A DNA stretch of 64,000 bases from Dictyostelium discoideum (GCA_000004695.1 CM000150.2:3200001-3264000); one strand, 5' to 3'. Counted from the first letter of the stretch, positions 33,164 to 38,620 are shown. The notes: generated by a model from the sequence alone, not told the origin. Numbers and translations: made by a program.

Positions 33164-35474
33164 ATGGAGTTTTCAACCAATTCAATTATTATATTAAATA
33201 TTATAAAATTTTTAGATGTTGATGATATTTTTTCCTGTGAATTAGTAAATAAATCTTGGTTAAAAGTTTCAAATAAAAATAAACTTTGGGAAATTTTATT
33301 TTTAAAAAATATTTTTAATATTGATGATTATTTTAATGAATCTACAATTTTTTCAAAAGGTTTATTAATTAGTAATAATAATAATAATAATAATAATAAT
33401 AATAATAATAATAATAATAATAATAATTATAATAATAATAATAATAATAATAATAATAATAATAATAATAATAATAATAATAATAATAATAATAATAATA
33501 ATAATAATAATAATAATAATAATAATAATAATAATAATAATAATAATAATGAAAATAATAATAATGATAATAATGAAAATAATAATAGTAATAATAATAA
33601 TGAAAATAATAATAATAATATTAAAAAAAGACCATTGGAAAATGAAACAATTTTAAAAAGCTTATCACCCAAAATATTAAAATGTGATTATAATAATAAT
33701 AATAATAATAATAATAATAATAATAATAATAATTATAATAATAATAATAATAATAATAATAATAAAATAAATAATAATAAAAGTGTTGATTGTATTAAAA
33801 TTAGAGATTTATATAAAATTAGTTTTCCACATCATTATAATAGATTATCAAATTTTAATAAATTAAAAAATAAAGGAGTAATTTCAGATGATGGAGTTTG
33901 GAGTGGTTGTGAAAATCTTGACAAAATTATTGAACACAAAATTTCGGCATTTAGTATTTTGTCATCTTTAAAAAGTGATTCGTATTCAATTAAAAATGAT
34001 TCAAAAGTAATTTTATTATCATTTAATAGTGATACTGGTTACGATGAGAGTTATTGTTATAAATATGATACATTTCAATATTTAATTTGTATTCCAAATA
34101 AAATTGAATCAATTAATGGTGAAATAAATTTAGAATATTCAAGATTTATCAAAGCATCATTTAAAATCTATTCAAAATATGAATATTGTGAACAGTAAAT
34201 ATAATAATTTTTATTTTTTTATTTTTTTTTTTTTTCGATTCTAACATATTATTTATTTTTTATTTTTAGTTTTGAAAATGATGATTCTGGATATGATGGT
34301 GTTTTATTAAAAGATGAATCATATTATAATTTTGAATTATTCGATATTAACGAGCCAACATTTGATGATGATGATAATGGTTTGGTAAATTTAATGAAAG
34401 TAATCAAGAAGAGGTTGAATATGTTAAAGAGAGTTATGTTAAAGGTTTAGTTGAATTTTCAAGAAATTCATTATCATTTTCATCATATTATTATGAAAAT
34501 AAATTTTTCCAACTCACTGGTTTTAATAGAGAAGAACGAACCAAGAAAAGAGTTCCCTTTGGATATGATTACAATCATTTATTTTCATCAGTATATCCAA
34601 TTAAACAAAATTATAAATTATTCAACGATAGTGTTGAAAATAATCAAGATTTTAAATTTACTGATATTTCAAAAACACCAAAAGATGTTAAAACACTTTT
34701 ACAAAATATCATATGGAAATATAGTATTTTTTATTTACCTGAATATTATGTAAGTTTTAATAAATAATAATAAATAATAGTAATAAAATAATAATAGTAA
34801 TAAATAATAATAATAATAATACTTATTTTTTAAAATTAAATAAATAGATGAGAAAATATAAATTAAAGTTTCTCATGAAAACAGAAGAAGAATTAGAAAA
34901 TGAAAAACCATATTTTGGCGAAGGGTTGGATCAATTTGTAAGAGAATCAATAATTTTAGAAAATAAATTATCATTTTCAGAAGATTATTATTCAGCTGGA
35001 ATGATTTCTTCATATGATTTTAAATTCTTAATTCCATATGATGACAATAATAATTTAATTATTAATCTAAAATATTATGATAGGAATTTTGAAGAAGAAA
35101 TTAATTTCACTGTTGAAGATAGATTAGTTAATTCTAATGGATGTTGTATTTGGGAAAATGATGATGATTTTAATAATTTATATTCATATAAATTACAGGA
35201 AGAAAGAGAAAAAATTCAATATGATAAAAAATTAATTTCAGATGAAATTGATTTGAAAAGTTTATCATTCTCTCAATTTATCTCATTATTACTTAAAAAG
35301 AAATATCCAAATATTTATTTTAAACTTTCAGATGTTTTTGCGGTTTCAGGTCTTGATTGTTTAATTGATTTTACTGATGACGAAAATAAAAGTTTAAAAC
35401 CAAATATTGATAAAATTGGAAATTTTAATGACCCACCCCAAGAAAAAAATTTAAGAAATCTAGATTTTAAATAA
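33164..35474 (+). CDS. F-box protein gene, tandem unit 1, exons 33164..34194, 34270..34749, 34848..35474. Exon 1 is intact (F-box plus poly-N). Exon 2 carries a ~95-bp deletion that shifts the frame. Exon 3 is intact.
   Basis: The F-box motif is IIKFLDVDDIFSCELVNKSWLKVSNKNKLWEILFL. The exon-1 donor is CA|GTAAAT (phase 2). Exon 2 (FENDDSGYDGVLLKDESYY...) lacks the segment gatgatgatggtgatgatggtggtaataaaaaac...tttggtaaattt that unit 2 retains, so the frame breaks after ...FDDDDNG. Exon 3 begins MRKYKLKFLMKTEEELENEKPYFGEGLDQFVRES.... Confidence 0.6.
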
Positions 35475-35589
35475 ATAAAAAAAAAATAAAAATAAAAATA
35501 AAAAAAAAAAAATCTAGAAAAAAAAATCTAAAAAAAAATAAACCATTGTTTTGAATTAATTTTATTTTTTAATTTTAATTTTAATTCTA

Positions 35590-35830
35590 TTTTTTTTTTA
35601 AAAACGAGTTCCGTTTGGATATGATTATAATTATTAAAACAATTCCAACAATCTTAAAAATAAATAATAATAATACTTATTTTTAAAATTAAATAGATGA
35701 ACCAATTTAATTAAGAAGAAAAAGAAAAAGAAGAAGAAGAAGAAAAGGAAGAAAAGGAAGAAGAAAATGAAAATGAAAAACCAAAATTCTTGTTAAAAAA
35801 AATAATAAAAAAATGTTGAAAATCGTTTTT
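35590..35830 (+). repeat. Short degenerate fragment of the F-box unit between units 1 and 2, covering the exon-2 end, the intron and the exon-3 start with a (GAA)n expansion.
   Basis: cgagttccgtttggatatgattataatt matches agagttccctttggatatgattacaatc. aataatacttatttttaaaattaaatagatga matches the intron-3 acceptor region. This is followed by (gaa)n and aatgaaaatgaaaaaccaaaattc. Confidence 0.6.
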
Positions 35831-35919
35831 TTTTTTTTTTAAAAATTCCTTTTTTTTTTTTTTTTTTAAAAAATAATCTAACCCTAAAACCTCACTTTTT
35901 GTAAAGCAAATAATAAAAA

Positions 35920-38114
35920 ATGGAGTTTTCAACCAATTCAATAATTATTTTTAATATTATAAAATATTTAGATGTTGATGATATTTTTTCCTGTGAATTA
36001 GTAAATAAATCTTGGTTAAAAGTTTCAAATAAAAATAAACTTTGGGAAATTTTATTTTTAAAAAATATTTTTAATATTGATGATTATTTTAATGAATCTA
36101 CAATTTTTTCAAAAGGTTTATTAATTAGTAATAATAATAATAATAATAATAATAATAATAATAATAATAATAATAATAATAATAATAATAATAATAATAA
36201 TAATAATAATGAAAATAATAATAAAAATAATAATAATAATGAAAATAATAATGAAAACAATAATATTAAAAAAAAGACCATTGGATAACGAAACAATTTT
36301 AGAAAGTTTATCACCTAAAATATTAAAATGTGATAATAATAATAATAAAATAAATAATAATAAAAGTGTTGATTGTATTAAAATTAGAGATTTATATAAA
36401 ATTAGTTTTCCACATCATTATAATAGATTATCAAATTTTAATAAATTAAAAAATAAAGGAATAATTTCAGATGATGGTGTTTGGAATAGTGAAAATCTTA
36501 GCCAAAATTTTAAACACACAACTTCAGCATTTAGTATTTTATCATCTTTAAAAAGTGATTCGTATTCAATTAAAAATGATTCAAAAGTAATTTTATTATC
36601 ATTTTATAGTGATACTGGTTACGATGAGAGTTATTGTTATAAATATGATACATTTCAATATTTAATTTGTATTCCAAATAAAATTGAATCAATTAATGGT
36701 GAAATAAATTTAGAATATTCAAGATTTATCAAAGCATCATTTAAAATCTCTTCAAAATATGATTATTATGAACAGTAAGTATATTAATTTATTATTTTTT
36801 TTTATTTTTTTAAAATTCATACATGTTTTTTTTTTCGATTCTAACATATTATTTATTTTTTATTTTTAGTTTTGAAAATGATGATTCTGGATATGATGGT
36901 GTTTTATTAAAAGATGAATCATATTATGATTTTGAATTATTCGATATTAACGAACCAACATTTGATGATGATGATGATGATGATGGTGATGATGGTGGTA
37001 ATAAAAAACTATCATTTAAAAATTATGATCCAGAATCAATCGAATCAGAAGCTGGAATTTCAGTATTTGAATTATGGTTTGGTAAATTTAATGAAAGTAA
37101 TCAAGAAGAGGTTGAATATGTTAAAGAGAGTTATGTTAAAGGTTTAGTTGAATTTTCAAGAAATTCATTATCATTTTCATCATATTATTATCAAAATAAA
37201 TTTTTCCAACTCACTGGTTTTAATAGAGAAGAACGAACGGATAAAAGAGTTCCCTTTGGATATGATTACAATCATTTATTTTCATCAGTATATCCAATTA
37301 AACAAAATTATAAATTATTCAATGATAGTGTTGAAAATAATCAAAAATTTAAATTAACTGATATTTCAAAAACACCAAAAGATGTTAAAACACTTTTACA
37401 AAATATCATATGGAAAAATAGTATTTTTTTTTTAACTGAATATTATGTAAGTTTTAATAAATAATAGTAATAAAATAATAATGATAAATAATACTTACTT
37501 TTTTAATACTAAATAAATAGATTAAAAAATTTAATAAAGAAGAAGAAGAAGAAGAAAATGAAAAACCATATTTTGGCAAAGGGTTGGGTCAATTTGTAAG
37601 GGAATCAATAATTTTAGAAAATGAATTATCATTTTCAGAAGATTATTATTCAGCTGGAATGATTTCTTCATATGATTTTAAATTCTTAATTCCATATGAT
37701 GACAATAATAATTTAATTATTAATCTAAAATATTATGATAGTAGTTTTAAAGAAGAAATTAATTTCACTGTTGAAGATAAATTAGTTAATTCTAATAATG
37801 GATGTTGTATTTCAGAAAGATATGGTTTTAATAATTTATATTCATATGAATTACAGGAAGAAAGAGAAAAAATTCGATATGATAAAAAATTAATTTCTGA
37901 TGGAATTGATTTGAAAAGTTTATCATTCTCTCAATTTATCTCACTATTACTTAAAAAGAAATATCCAAATATTTATTTTAAACTTTCAGATGTTTTTGCG
38001 GTTTCAGGTTTTGATTGTTTAATTGATTTTACTGATGACGAAAATAAAAGTTTAAAACCAAAAATTGATAAAGTCGCAAATTTTAATTGTTTAGCTAAGA
38101 TTTCAAATGAATAA
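35920..38114 (+). CDS. F-box protein gene, tandem unit 2, exons 35920..36774, 36870..37446, 37521..38114. Exon 1 is frameshifted by one extra A in an A8 run near 36270. Exons 2 and 3 are intact and mutually in frame.
   Basis: The F-box motif is IIKYLDVDDIFSCELVNKSWLKVSNKNKLWEILFL. The sequence aatattaaaaaaaagaccattggataacg here contrasts with unit 1 aatattaaaaaaagaccattggaaaatg, producing the stop (…NIKKKTIG*). The downstream frame 36209..36778 resumes the unit-1 sequence. Exon 2 is FENDDSGYDGV...TEYY (GTAAGT donor, phase 0). Exon 3 is IKKFNKEEEEEENEKPYFGKGLGQFVRES...KISNE*. Confidence 0.55.
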
Positions 38115-38249
38115 ATAAATAAAATAAATAAAATAAAAAAATAAATAAAAAAAAAATAAAAATAAACCATTGTTTTTTTAATTAATTTTAATTTTTTTTT
38201 TTTTTTTTTTTTTTTTTTTAAAAAAATTCTATTATCAAGAAAATCATTA

Positions 38250-38620
38250 TCCAATTAAAGAATTTAAAAATTATTCAATTATTTTGTTCATATGGAAAAA
38301 TAGTATTTCTTTATTCATCAATAAATTGTTTAAGTTTTAATAAATAATAAATAAATAAATAAAAATAATAATAATAAATAAATAGATGAACGAATTTAAC
38401 CATGAAGAAGATAATGAAAAATCAAATTTTGGTGAAGGGTTGGGTGATTTTTTTGTGAATCCATAATTTTAGAAAATAAATTATCATTTTCAGAAGATAT
38501 CCCTAGTGGTCTTGGTTATTTAATTGATTTTACTGATTAAGAAATTAAAACCAAATATTGAAAAAGTTGGAAGCTTAAAAGATTTATCATAAGAAAGTAT
38601 TATAAGAAATGAAAGATTTT
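38250..38620 (+). pseudogene. Highly degenerate third partial copy of the F-box unit, covering the exon-2 end and exon-3 start with a large internal deletion.
   Basis: ttcatatggaaaaatagtatttctttattcatc...taaataaatagatgaacgaatttaac...aaattttggtgaagggttgggtgatttttttgtgaatccataattttagaaaataaattatcattttcagaagatat|ccctagtggtcttggttatttaattgattttactgattaagaaattaaaaccaaatattg is followed by stops. Confidence 0.6.

What the first reader, a model, noticed from the sequence alone, without database searches (positions are those of the whole stretch)
33164..38620. Tandem array of ~2.7-kb F-box gene units with complementary disabling lesions and two further decayed partial copies
Units 1 (33100-35700) and 2 (35860-38400) share the same three-exon gene: an F-box plus poly-N exon, a middle exon, and a C-terminal exon. 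In unit 1 the F-box exon is intact, but exon 2 has a ~95-bp deletion that shifts the frame. In unit 2 exons 2 and 3 are intact, but the F-box exon carries a +1 A insertion in an A7/A8 run and a shorter poly-N tract. Neither unit therefore encodes the full protein as assembled. A mini-fragment lies at 35590-35830 with a (GAA)n expansion, and a deleted third copy lies at 38250-38620, showing ongoing birth-and-death of the array. Either both copies are pseudogenes caught early, or the homopolymer lesion is a sequencing error and unit 2 is the functional gene. A third possibility is that the units are expressed as different truncated products: an F-box-only adaptor from unit 1, and an F-box-less substrate-binding part from unit 2.
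Basis: seen in the sequence. Interest (0 to 1): 0.7.

Follow-up and report, generated by a model that had tools for sequence, protein, structure and literature searches.

The report
Two broken tandem F-box gene copies
Two neighbouring copies of a fast-evolving Dictyostelium F-box gene are each knocked out by one recent, real frameshift in the laboratory strain lineage, while related wild isolates each keep one intact copy; this is ordinary gene-family turnover.

Summary
Window 33164-38114 holds two head-to-tail copies (period 2756 bp, about 93% identical) of a three-exon gene: F-box, poly-Asn tract, then a roughly 500-residue domain with no known relatives. Unit 1 has a frame-shifting deletion in exon 2. 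It is 97 nt relative to unit 2 but 73 nt relative to orthologues. Unit 2 has A8 where unit 1 and orthologues have an in-frame A7. Two decayed partial copies follow the units.

Both lesions recur in an independent Nanopore plus Illumina assembly that is 99.6% identical and is probably AX2-214. The sequencing-error reading is therefore rejected.

Unit 2 is already annotated as DDB_G0269656, an F-box-less 564-residue protein that starts at an internal ATG behind five upstream ATGs. Unit 1 has no protein record.

Two wild D. discoideum isolates each keep one intact copy: a unit-1 orthologue in one, and a unit-2-type gene behind a unit-1-type flank in the other. A cryptic sister species also has one intact copy, and D. 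purpureum has two.

The partial copies are old relics shared across isolates or species, not new births. Each unit carries only its one lesion, so inactivation is recent.

Best reading: a recombination-prone tandem array with recent double pseudogenisation in the NC4 lineage. Expression was not testable. Interest is low to moderate.

The parts
33164..34194 (+). Unit 1 exon 1: intact F-box (residues 9-47), long poly-Asn tracts, in-frame A7 at 33623-33629
   Evidence: Translation; Pfam F-box; upstream flank is collinear with the flank of the single or first gene in L006, L007 and L002
34270..34749 (+). Unit 1 exon 2, with the frame-shifting deletion junction at about 34376-34378 and the resulting premature stop at 34448-34450
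   Evidence: 97 nt missing relative to unit 2, 73 nt relative to the L002 orthologue; same junction in L001 at 8111
34848..35474 (+). Unit 1 exon 3. Still open in the ancestral frame; long 'unit-1-type' C-terminus ..NFNDPPQEKNLRNLDFK, stop at 35472-35474
   Evidence: the C-terminus type is shared with L007 gene A and the L002 gene
35596..35800 (+). Relic M ('mini-fragment'): decayed exon 2 tail, intron 2 and exon 3 head, with a purine-rich GAA tract
   Evidence: Alignment; an orthologous relic lies downstream of gene A in L007 (rc 13440-13560), where the rest of its exon 3 survives (rc 13895-14495)
35920..36774 (+). Unit 2 exon 1: F-box, shorter poly-Asn tract, +1 frameshift A8 at 36268-36275, stop of the F-box frame at 36286-36288. 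The annotated start of DDB_G0269656 is at 36251 in the shifted frame
   Evidence: A8 also present in L001 at 10012
36870..37446 (+). Unit 2 exon 2: intact, and includes the segment deleted in unit 1 plus a 24-nt Asp/Gly expansion
37521..38114 (+). Unit 2 exon 3: intact, short 'unit-2-type' C-terminus ..NFNCLAKISNE, stop at 38112-38114
   Evidence: this C-terminus type is shared with the intact L006 gene and with L007 M and c2; exon-3 clade has 100% bootstrap
38225..38623 (+). Relic 'part 3': 5'-truncated copy (exon 2 tail, intron 2, exon 3) with an internal deletion and in-frame stops
   Evidence: it carries the signature of L002 fragC (GLGYLIDF..KVGSLKDLSQESILRNERF), so it is an orthologous old relic. 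L006 and L007 keep only its first 25 nt or so

Best explanation
This is a small tandem array on Dictyostelium discoideum chromosome 1. It belongs to a fast-evolving F-box gene family found here only in D. discoideum and its close relatives.

The ancestral protein has an N-terminal F-box, a poly-Asn linker and a roughly 500-residue domain with no known relatives. By inference from the F-box alone, it is an SCF ubiquitin-ligase substrate receptor: the F-box binds Skp1 and the C-terminal domain binds the target.

The array changes by unequal crossing-over, gene conversion, deletion and repeat slippage. The D. discoideum ancestor already carried a unit-1-type gene, a truncated relic M, a unit-2-type gene and a truncated relic ('part 3').

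In the lineage of the reference and laboratory strains, both full-length genes have recently been disabled as F-box proteins. Unit 1 lost 73 bp from exon 2, which shifts the frame. Unit 2 gained one A in an A7 run, as replication slippage would produce (the mechanism is inferred). They are therefore young unprocessed pseudogenes.

The annotated F-box-less protein DDB_G0269656 is most likely an open reading frame salvaged by the gene caller, not a translated product.

Shown: the anatomy, the reality of both lesions, their absence from orthologues, and the age of the relics. Inferred: SCF function, lack of translation of the downstream frames, and slippage as the mechanism.
For: - Anatomy and lesions.
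- F-box above the Pfam cut-offs.
- Both lesions and the A7 of unit 1 are identical in L001 (GCA_054883475.1), which differs from the window over 8 kb only by five homopolymer or low-complexity length differences and four base substitutions, one of them inside the array. That assembly project used de novo Nanopore plus Illumina sequencing and included AX2-214, which the authors report as 99.5% identical to AX4 at another locus (PMC12745789).
- Intact orthologues exist: L006, one 699-residue gene with A7 and the segment deleted in unit 1; L007 gene A, 664 residues, with a unit-1-type C-terminus; L002, 689 residues; D. purpureum, two tandem genes of 713 and 723 residues.
- In the exon-3 neighbour-joining tree, unit 2, the L006 gene, L007 M and L007 c2 form a clade with 100% bootstrap that excludes unit 1 and L007 gene A. 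The clade also shares a derived C-terminal indel.
- The relics are orthologous to relics elsewhere.
- Each unit has one lesion and no other stop. With about 7.6-7.8% of point changes creating stops, that bounds neutral decay to under about 0.024 (unit 2) and 0.038 (unit 1) substitutions per site, against dS of about 0.06 between unit 2 and L006.
- No protein record exists for any plausible unit 1 product.
- Five ATGs precede the annotated start of DDB_G0269656.
Against: - No transcript, ribosome-profiling or peptide data could be consulted, so 'not expressed' and 'not translated' are untested.
- dN/dS (Nei-Gojobori) is 0.66-1.2 for every pair, including intact against intact. It therefore gives no independent sign of relaxed constraint in units 1 and 2.
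- F-box-less copies recur: D. dimigraforme copy 1 (P0002) and L007 c2. That could hint at a use for F-box-less forms, although L007 c2 has an in-frame stop.
- Identifying L001 as AX2-214, and L006 and L007 as CR116C and OT3A, is inferred from identity levels and the paper's strain table, not read from the records.
- If L001 is AX2, it shares the NC4 ancestor with AX4. The lesions are then shown to be real but not shown to be widespread in nature.
Confidence: 0.7

Rival explanations
1. Functional split (sub- or neofunctionalisation). Unit 1 yields a 403-residue F-box protein with a partial C-domain. Unit 2 yields the 564-residue F-box-less protein DDB_G0269656, which would act as a free substrate-binding or decoy protein.
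For: - The long frame downstream of each lesion is still open.
- AX4 and the L001 annotation both call the 564-residue product.
- F-box-less family members are also annotated in D. dimigraforme (P0002).
Against: - The open frames are equally explained by recency.
- The 564-residue start lies behind the native ATG and four more ATGs.
- Unit 2 keeps only about 55 nt of the ancestral upstream region.
- Neither lesion is conserved in any other isolate.
- The other F-box-less D. discoideum copy, L007 c2, is 5'-truncated and has an in-frame stop.
Confidence: 0.15
2. Sequencing or assembly artefact: the A8 (and perhaps the deletion) are errors in the reference, and unit 2 is simply the functional full-length gene.
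For: Homopolymer length errors are common. Intergenic homopolymers do differ between the window and L001 at five sites.
Against: Two assemblies made by different technologies agree on A8 in unit 2, A7 in unit 1 and the deletion junction. The second assembly was short-read polished (PMC12745789).
Confidence: 0.03
3. Frameshift bypass: transcriptional slippage or +1 ribosomal slippage on the A8 run restores some full-length unit 2 protein, so the gene is leaky rather than dead.
For: The lesion sits in an A8 run. Established knowledge is that long A runs promote polymerase and ribosome slippage. The downstream frame is intact.
Against: The site is not a conserved programmed signal. Orthologues and unit 1 read through an in-frame A7, and the L002 protein reads N-K-R at this position, against I-K-K-R in unit 1. 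Known ribosome sliding needs longer A tracts (my recollection, not tested here). No data support it.
Confidence: 0.04
4. Recent lineage-specific tandem duplication followed by immediate decay of both copies: the two units and the two fragments are all young products of ongoing duplication.
For: Unit 1 and unit 2 are slightly more similar to each other (93.9%) than unit 1 is to L006 (91.4%). One 200-nt block is 99% identical.
Against: - The exon-3 tree and the shared C-terminal indel place unit 2 with L006 and the L007 unit-2-type copies, to the exclusion of unit 1.
- L007 has an intact unit 1 orthologue plus the M relic.
- Part 3 is orthologous to L002 fragC.
- The local high identity fits gene conversion.
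Confidence: 0.08

Closest known systems
DDB_G0269656 (UniProt Q55DI0, XP_646151.1), hypothetical protein of D. discoideum AX4
   Same: It is unit 2 itself: 100% identical to the unit 2 translation from 36251 to 38111 across the two introns.
   Different: The database entry hides the fact that the open reading frame is the 3' part of a frameshifted F-box gene. It has no Pfam domain, and its start is an internal ATG in the shifted frame.
D. purpureum F-box proteins DICPUDRAFT_78608 and DICPUDRAFT_151905 (713 and 723 residues), and the intact genes in L006, L007 and L002
   Same: Same architecture (F-box plus the same C-terminal domain). Also head-to-tail neighbours in D. purpureum.
   Different: These are intact. 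The D. purpureum proteins have an extra N-terminal extension of about 88 residues, lack poly-Asn tracts, and are only 32-33% identical.
Q54XT0, 'cyclin-like F-box containing protein' of AX4 (P0007, 636 residues)
   Same: A distant paralogue that shares the F-box, the following roughly 60 residues and the C-terminal FISLLFKKKFP motif (E = 9e-29 to the family profile).
   Different: It lies on another chromosome-sized contig (6.4 Mb), is intact, and is very divergent in the middle. AX4 therefore lacks an intact member of this tandem subfamily, but not of the wider family.
Birth-and-death evolution of F-box (and other ubiquitin-ligase adaptor) gene families in plants and nematodes (established knowledge; compare PMC12951971 for Caenorhabditis, seen only as a search listing with the opening lines of its abstract)
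   Same: Tandem arrays, frequent pseudogenes and truncated relics, high dN/dS in the substrate-binding part, and differences in copy number and integrity between close relatives.
   Different: The family here is tiny: seven matches at E <= 0.001 among 1.84 billion cluster representatives. That is not hundreds of genes, and the C-terminal domain is unrelated to the known FBA, LRR, Kelch or WD40 modules.
The tgr gene loci of Dictyostelium (Holland et al. 2025, PMC12745789)
   Same: Same genomes, and the same style of rapid local duplication, deletion, recombination and pseudogenisation between isolates.
   Different: The proteins are unrelated, and no role in recognition is known or implied here.

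Membership tests
F-box protein (SCF substrate receptor) | An F-box motif recognised by the curated profiles above their gathering scores | tested here: met
   PF12937 at 26.5-28 bits against 24.3, and PF00646 at 20.8-21.2 against 20.5, residues 9-47, in unit 1, repaired unit 2 and the L006 orthologue. A PDB profile search hits only F-box protein GID2, E about 1e-3.
F-box protein (SCF substrate receptor) | F-box and substrate-binding domain encoded in one continuous reading frame | tested here: not met
   Met in orthologues. Not met in either unit of the window: the frame breaks at 34376-34378 in unit 1 and at 36268-36275 in unit 2.
F-box protein (SCF substrate receptor) | Binding to Skp1 and recruitment of substrates | not testable with these tools
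   No interaction data. The gene is absent from the main text and the one held supplement of the Skp1 interactome paper PMC9485057.
Unprocessed (duplicated) pseudogene | Retains the intron-exon structure and flanks of a functional relative | tested here: met
   Homologous GT..AG introns in units 1 and 2 and in intact orthologues.
Unprocessed (duplicated) pseudogene | A disabling lesion that is real and derived relative to intact orthologues | tested here: met
   Lesions reproduced in L001 and absent from the L006, L007 gene A and L002 genes.
Unprocessed (duplicated) pseudogene | No functional product (no translation of the downstream frame) | not testable with these tools
   No expression data were reachable. 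The only indirect argument is the upstream ATGs.
Unprocessed (duplicated) pseudogene | Relaxed selective constraint relative to functional relatives | tested here: inconclusive
   dN/dS is 0.84 for unit 1 against unit 2, but 0.85-1.22 among intact genes too. The family evolves fast throughout. Nei-Gojobori estimates are also rough in genomes this A+T-rich.
Programmed frameshift or slippage site | The slippery run and the frame offset are conserved in orthologues | tested here: not met
   Unit 1 and L006 have an in-frame A7; L007 gene A reads through the site in frame; the L002 protein reads N-K-R there. The A8 offset occurs only in the window and L001.
Tandem array evolving by unequal crossing-over or gene conversion | Head-to-tail units, with copy number and junctions varying between close relatives, and mosaic similarity | tested here: met
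   Period 2756 bp. Full-length or near-full-length copies number one (L006), two plus relics (window, L007), one plus relics (L002) and three (L003). The L006 gene combines a unit-1-type flank with a unit-2-type body. Identity between the units ranges from 85% to 99% in 200-nt windows.

The most novel reading that the evidence does not exclude
The complementary placement of the two lesions may not be just bad luck. The array could behave as a reversible on/off locus. A single unequal crossover or gene-conversion tract anywhere in the roughly 700-bp interval between the lesions would rebuild an intact gene. So would a -1 slip of the A8 run. That interval is 95% identical between the units, with identical runs of up to 144 nt. 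Isolate L006 has exactly the recombinant architecture expected: a unit-1-type flank with a unit-2-type body. On this reading, a fast-evolving F-box receptor, possibly a conflict or immunity gene, is switched off and on in natural populations. In the off state it might also supply an F-box-only fragment and an F-box-less fragment with regulatory (decoy) activity.
Probability: 0.06. Interest if true: 0.65.

Novelty: new member of a known kind. Interest (0 to 1): 0.3.

Why it matters
- Annotation. DDB_G0269656 (Q55DI0) should be flagged as the 3' part of a frameshifted F-box gene. Unit 1 should be recorded as a pseudogene. The 702-residue model in the second assembly rests on a 29-nt pseudo-intron.
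- Strain choice. The standard laboratory lineage appears to lack any intact member of this tandem subfamily, whereas the wild isolates examined keep one. Any function of this family would have to be studied in wild isolates, and it is one more way in which the laboratory strains are not representative.
- Evolution. The locus is a compact, well-resolved example of reciprocal retention and loss of tandem paralogues between very close relatives, in a family with dN/dS near 1 but long maintained reading frames. That pattern is typical of adaptor genes involved in conflict.

None of this changes current understanding of F-box biology.

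Tried and rejected
- **Function of the C-terminal domain.** Pfam finds only the F-box. A PDB profile search finds only F-box GID2. The AlphaFold2 model from a five-sequence alignment is poor (mean pLDDT 45.7), and its Foldseek search against the PDB gave nothing at E <= 0.001. 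No fold assignment was made.
- **Deeper homology.** Two word-indexed searches and one exhaustive HMMER profile search found only D. purpureum, D. dimigraforme and D. cf. discoideum members, the distant AX4 paralogue Q54XT0, and two marginal hits: a D. citrinum protein aligned only to the N-terminal extension, and an unidentified 188-residue protein aligned only to the F-box. Poly-Asn-rich full-length models from the new assemblies never appeared in these searches, so I rebuilt them from the loci.
- **Literature.** There were no hits for DDB_G0269656 or DDB_G0269654. The Skp1-interactome paper does not mention them, in the main text or its one held supplement, and the hypoxia paper has no supplement held. 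No expression evidence was obtained.
- **Exact look-ups of plausible products.** The unit 1 products (403, 344 and 702 residues) and the unit 2 product (122 residues) are not in the protein collection. This does not show that the units are unexpressed.
- **Look-up of the spliced 111-residue neighbour.** I reached the wild-isolate loci through a homologue search instead.
- **dN/dS as a pseudogene test.** It is uninformative, because intact genes also give about 1.
- **An apparent third lesion.** I first took the short C-terminus of unit 2 for another lesion. I withdrew this because the intact L006 gene has the same C-terminus.
- **Duplication of a 'gene plus relic' unit.** I considered whether the two relics arose this way. 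The spacing and an AATTCTATT motif fit. However, M has a unit-2-type tail in L007 while part 3 has the long type, so this is unresolved.
- **Alternative introns that would rescue the frames.** Only chance GT..AG pairs exist.

Full report
**1. Source and setting**

The window is about 80% A+T and has poly-Asn coding tracts. The unit 2 translation is 100% identical to DDB_G0269656 of Dictyostelium discoideum AX4 (Q55DI0, XP_646151.1), which is recorded on a 4.92-Mb contig, the size of chromosome 1. The array lies between a small gene on the minus strand (window 31860-32274, DDB_G0269652) and a gene of about 1200 residues followed by a catalase.

**2.

- A global alignment of the two units gives 92.6% identity over 2285 aligned bases, with a period of 2756 bp.
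- Both units share a three-exon structure with homologous GT..AG introns:
  - Unit 1: 33164-34194, 34270-34749, 34848-35474.
  - Unit 2: 35920-36774, 36870-37446, 37521-38114.
- Residues 9-47 are an F-box, just above both Pfam gathering scores.
- Unit 1 lacks 97 nt relative to unit 2 after about 34376. The frame shifts and stops at 34448-34450, giving 403 residues.
- Unit 2 has A8 (36268-36275) where unit 1 has A7 (33623-33629). Its stop is at 36286-36288, giving 122 residues.
- A three-way alignment with an intact orthologue shows the unit 1 event was a 73-nt deletion. The other 24 nt are an in-frame Asp/Gly-tract expansion in unit 2.
- Once each lesion is conceptually repaired, neither unit has any other stop or frameshift over 711 and 674 codons.
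- tblastn finds no further copies in the 64-kb window. The two short relics show up by blastn and alignment.

**3. The lesions are real**

A second assembly, L001 (GCA_054883475.1, locus-tag prefix ACTFIT), aligns to window 32000-40000 at 99.6%. It differs at nine sites: five homopolymer or low-complexity length differences and four base substitutions, only one of which lies inside the array (33210 T>A). It has A7 in unit 1, A8 in unit 2 and the identical deletion junction.

The assembly accessions and locus-tag prefixes match the series deposited by Holland et al. 2025 (PMC12745789). That project made de novo Nanopore plus Illumina assemblies of AX2-214, two wild D. discoideum isolates (CR116C, OT3A), two cryptic sister species and other group 4 species. 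It reports AX2 as 99.5% identical to AX4 at another locus. I infer that L001 is AX2-214.

The caveat is that AX2 and AX4 descend from the same natural isolate, NC4 (my own knowledge of strain history, not checked here). If L001 is AX2, the result shows that the lesions are genuine in that lineage. It does not show that they are common in nature.

**4. How the databases treat the units**

Unit 2 is annotated in both AX4 and L001 as a 564-residue protein starting at 36251. That is an ATG in the shifted frame, inside the poly-Asn tract. Five ATGs, including the native start in a good context, lie upstream of it on any full-length transcript. The product has no Pfam domain.

No plausible unit 1 product exists in the protein collection. 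The gene identifier between its neighbours, DDB_G0269654, is probably unit 1, but that is a guess from numbering. The L001 annotation calls a 702-residue unit 1 protein. This length is reproduced only by removing a 29-nt GT..AG 'intron' (34380-34408 or 34385-34413), which bridges the frameshift. Given the 74-98-nt real introns here, I regard it as an annotation artefact.

**5. Comparative anatomy**

| Locus | Organism | Array content |
|---|---|---|
| L006 (GCA_054859355.1) | D. discoideum wild isolate | One intact 699-residue gene between the same flanking genes. Its upstream region carries a roughly 40-nt segment present in unit 1 but absent in unit 2. Its body and C-terminus (..FNCLKKISNE) are unit-2-type. 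It has A7 and the segment deleted in unit 1. |
| L007 (GCA_054859385.1) | D. discoideum wild isolate | Intact 664-residue gene A with a unit-1-type C-terminus; then the orthologue of relic M with its full but decayed exon 3; then a 5'-truncated unit-2-type copy (c2) with an in-frame stop. |
| L002 | D. cf. discoideum | One intact 689-residue gene; a copy reduced to an F-box piece fused to the exon-3 tail; and a 5'-truncated copy, fragC. |
| L003 | D. dimigraforme | Three copies; the first lacks an F-box. |
| L004 | D. purpureum | Two intact tandem genes. |

- The 3' signature of L002 fragC (GLGYLIDF...KVGSLKDLSQESILRNERF) identifies it as the orthologue of the window's part 3 relic.
- L006 and L007 share one deletion that leaves only about 25 nt of the part 3 relic.
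- D. purpureum also has a further pair of genes on another contig.
- AX4 has one intact but very divergent paralogue elsewhere, Q54XT0.

**6. History of the array**

In the exon-3 neighbour-joining tree, unit 2, the L006 gene, L007 M and L007 c2 form a clade with 100% bootstrap that excludes unit 1 and L007 gene A. The same grouping is marked by a derived indel of about 20 nt that creates the short C-terminus.

The split between unit-1-type and unit-2-type copies therefore predates the divergence of these isolates. The relics M and part 3 are older than the isolates too, and part 3 is older than the split from the cryptic species.

Similarity between units 1 and 2 is mosaic, ranging from 85% to 99% in 200-nt windows, which fits gene conversion. 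L006 looks like the product of an unequal crossover in the F-box or poly-Asn region that fused a unit 1 flank to a unit 2 body. The locus is thus a recombination-prone array whose configuration differs in every genome examined.

**7. Age and selection**

Nei-Gojobori dN/dS is 0.84 for unit 1 against unit 2. It is also 0.85-1.22 among the intact genes. The family evolves fast everywhere, and dN/dS cannot diagnose pseudogenes here. The method is also rough at this base composition.

Long reading frames of 660-700 codons are nevertheless maintained in the intact genes. In this sequence 7.6-7.8% of random point changes create a stop, which argues for selection on the intact genes.

The same figure bounds neutral decay downstream of the lesions to under 0.024 (unit 2) and 0.038 (unit 1) substitutions per site at 95%. 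For comparison, dS is about 0.06 between unit 2 and its L006 orthologue. The inactivations are therefore recent, consistent with their absence from L006 and L007.

**8. Mechanism and rivals**

The most likely reading (about 0.7) is recent double pseudogenisation of redundant tandem paralogues. One paralogue was hit by a deletion and the other by homopolymer slippage, in a family whose normal role is, by inference from the F-box only, an SCF substrate receptor.

The wild isolates suggest that one intact copy is normally kept: a unit-1-type gene in L007 and a unit-2-type gene in L006, which amounts to reciprocal retention. The reference lineage has none.

| Rival reading | Probability | Main point against |
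|---|---|---|
| Functional split into an F-box fragment and an F-box-less protein | about 0.15 | Untested; upstream ATGs, truncated upstream region and no conservation argue against it |
| Young lineage-specific duplication | about 0.08 | Contradicted by the exon-3 tree and the orthologous relics |
| Slippage bypass at A8 | about 0.04 | The offset is not conserved in orthologues |
| Sequencing error | about 0.03 | Two assemblies by different technologies agree |

One curiosity remains. The lesions sit at opposite ends of a roughly 700-bp stretch that is 95% identical between the units. A single unit 1 / unit 2 exchange there would rebuild an open 733-codon gene.

**9. Verdict**

The feature is a new, well-documented instance of a known kind: birth-and-death turnover in a tandem F-box family, with young unprocessed pseudogenes. 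It has practical value for annotation and for choosing strains, but it is not surprising to a specialist. What remains unknown is the expression of the two units, the function of the C-terminal domain, and the population frequency of the lesions.

Noticed in passing
window 34380-34413 (L001 about 8130-8160): The annotation of the second assembly calls a 702-residue protein for unit 1. That length is reproduced only by splicing out a 29-nt GT..AG segment that bridges the frameshift, so it looks like a gene-caller artefact.
   Followed up: yes
window 31860-32274 (-): The small gene left of the array has discordant models. The L001 annotation gives 111 residues with one 79-nt intron. AX4 gives 119 residues (DDB_G0269652), only 71% identical over the aligned part. 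Wild isolates have 108-residue versions that are 86% identical.
   Followed up: partly
window 33210: This is the only base difference inside the array between the window and L001 (T>A). It changes unit 1 Phe16 to Tyr, the state found in unit 2 and all orthologues. It could be gene conversion, or cross-mapping of short reads during polishing.
   Followed up: no
window 34364-34377 and 36964-37002; L006 (rc) exon 2: The poly-Asp tract in exon 2 is highly length-variable: 4 Asp in unit 1, a 12-residue Asp/Gly run in unit 2, and about 57 Asp in the intact L006 gene. The poly-Asn tracts in exon 1 vary similarly between copies.
   Followed up: partly
L002 4713-5427, 5629-5707, 6143-6914: In D. cf. 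discoideum the upstream flank of the array is present twice, with an 80-nt exon-3 relic between the copies. This indicates yet another duplicated and decayed unit upstream of the intact gene.
   Followed up: partly
L006 (rc) 13520-13550; L007 (rc) 16598-16620: Both wild D. discoideum isolates share the same deletion of the part 3 relic, leaving only AATTCTATTATCAAGAAAATCATT. This marks them as sister lineages relative to the reference strain.
   Followed up: yes
L003 616-2404: In D. dimigraforme the family sits in a different neighbourhood: a Tf2-type retrotransposon integrase and a profilin gene lie a few kb from the three-copy array. The first copy (P0002) has no detectable F-box.
   Followed up: no
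window 22819-22890 (+) and 56805-56877 (-): There are two tRNA genes in the window, tRNA-Thr(AGT) and tRNA-Ile(AAT). They are unrelated to the array.
   Followed up: no
window 33630-34376 and 36277-36976: The interval between the two lesions is 95.1% identical between the units, with an identical run of 144 nt. An in-silico unit 1 (5') / unit 2 (3') recombinant is an open 733-codon gene.
   Followed up: yes
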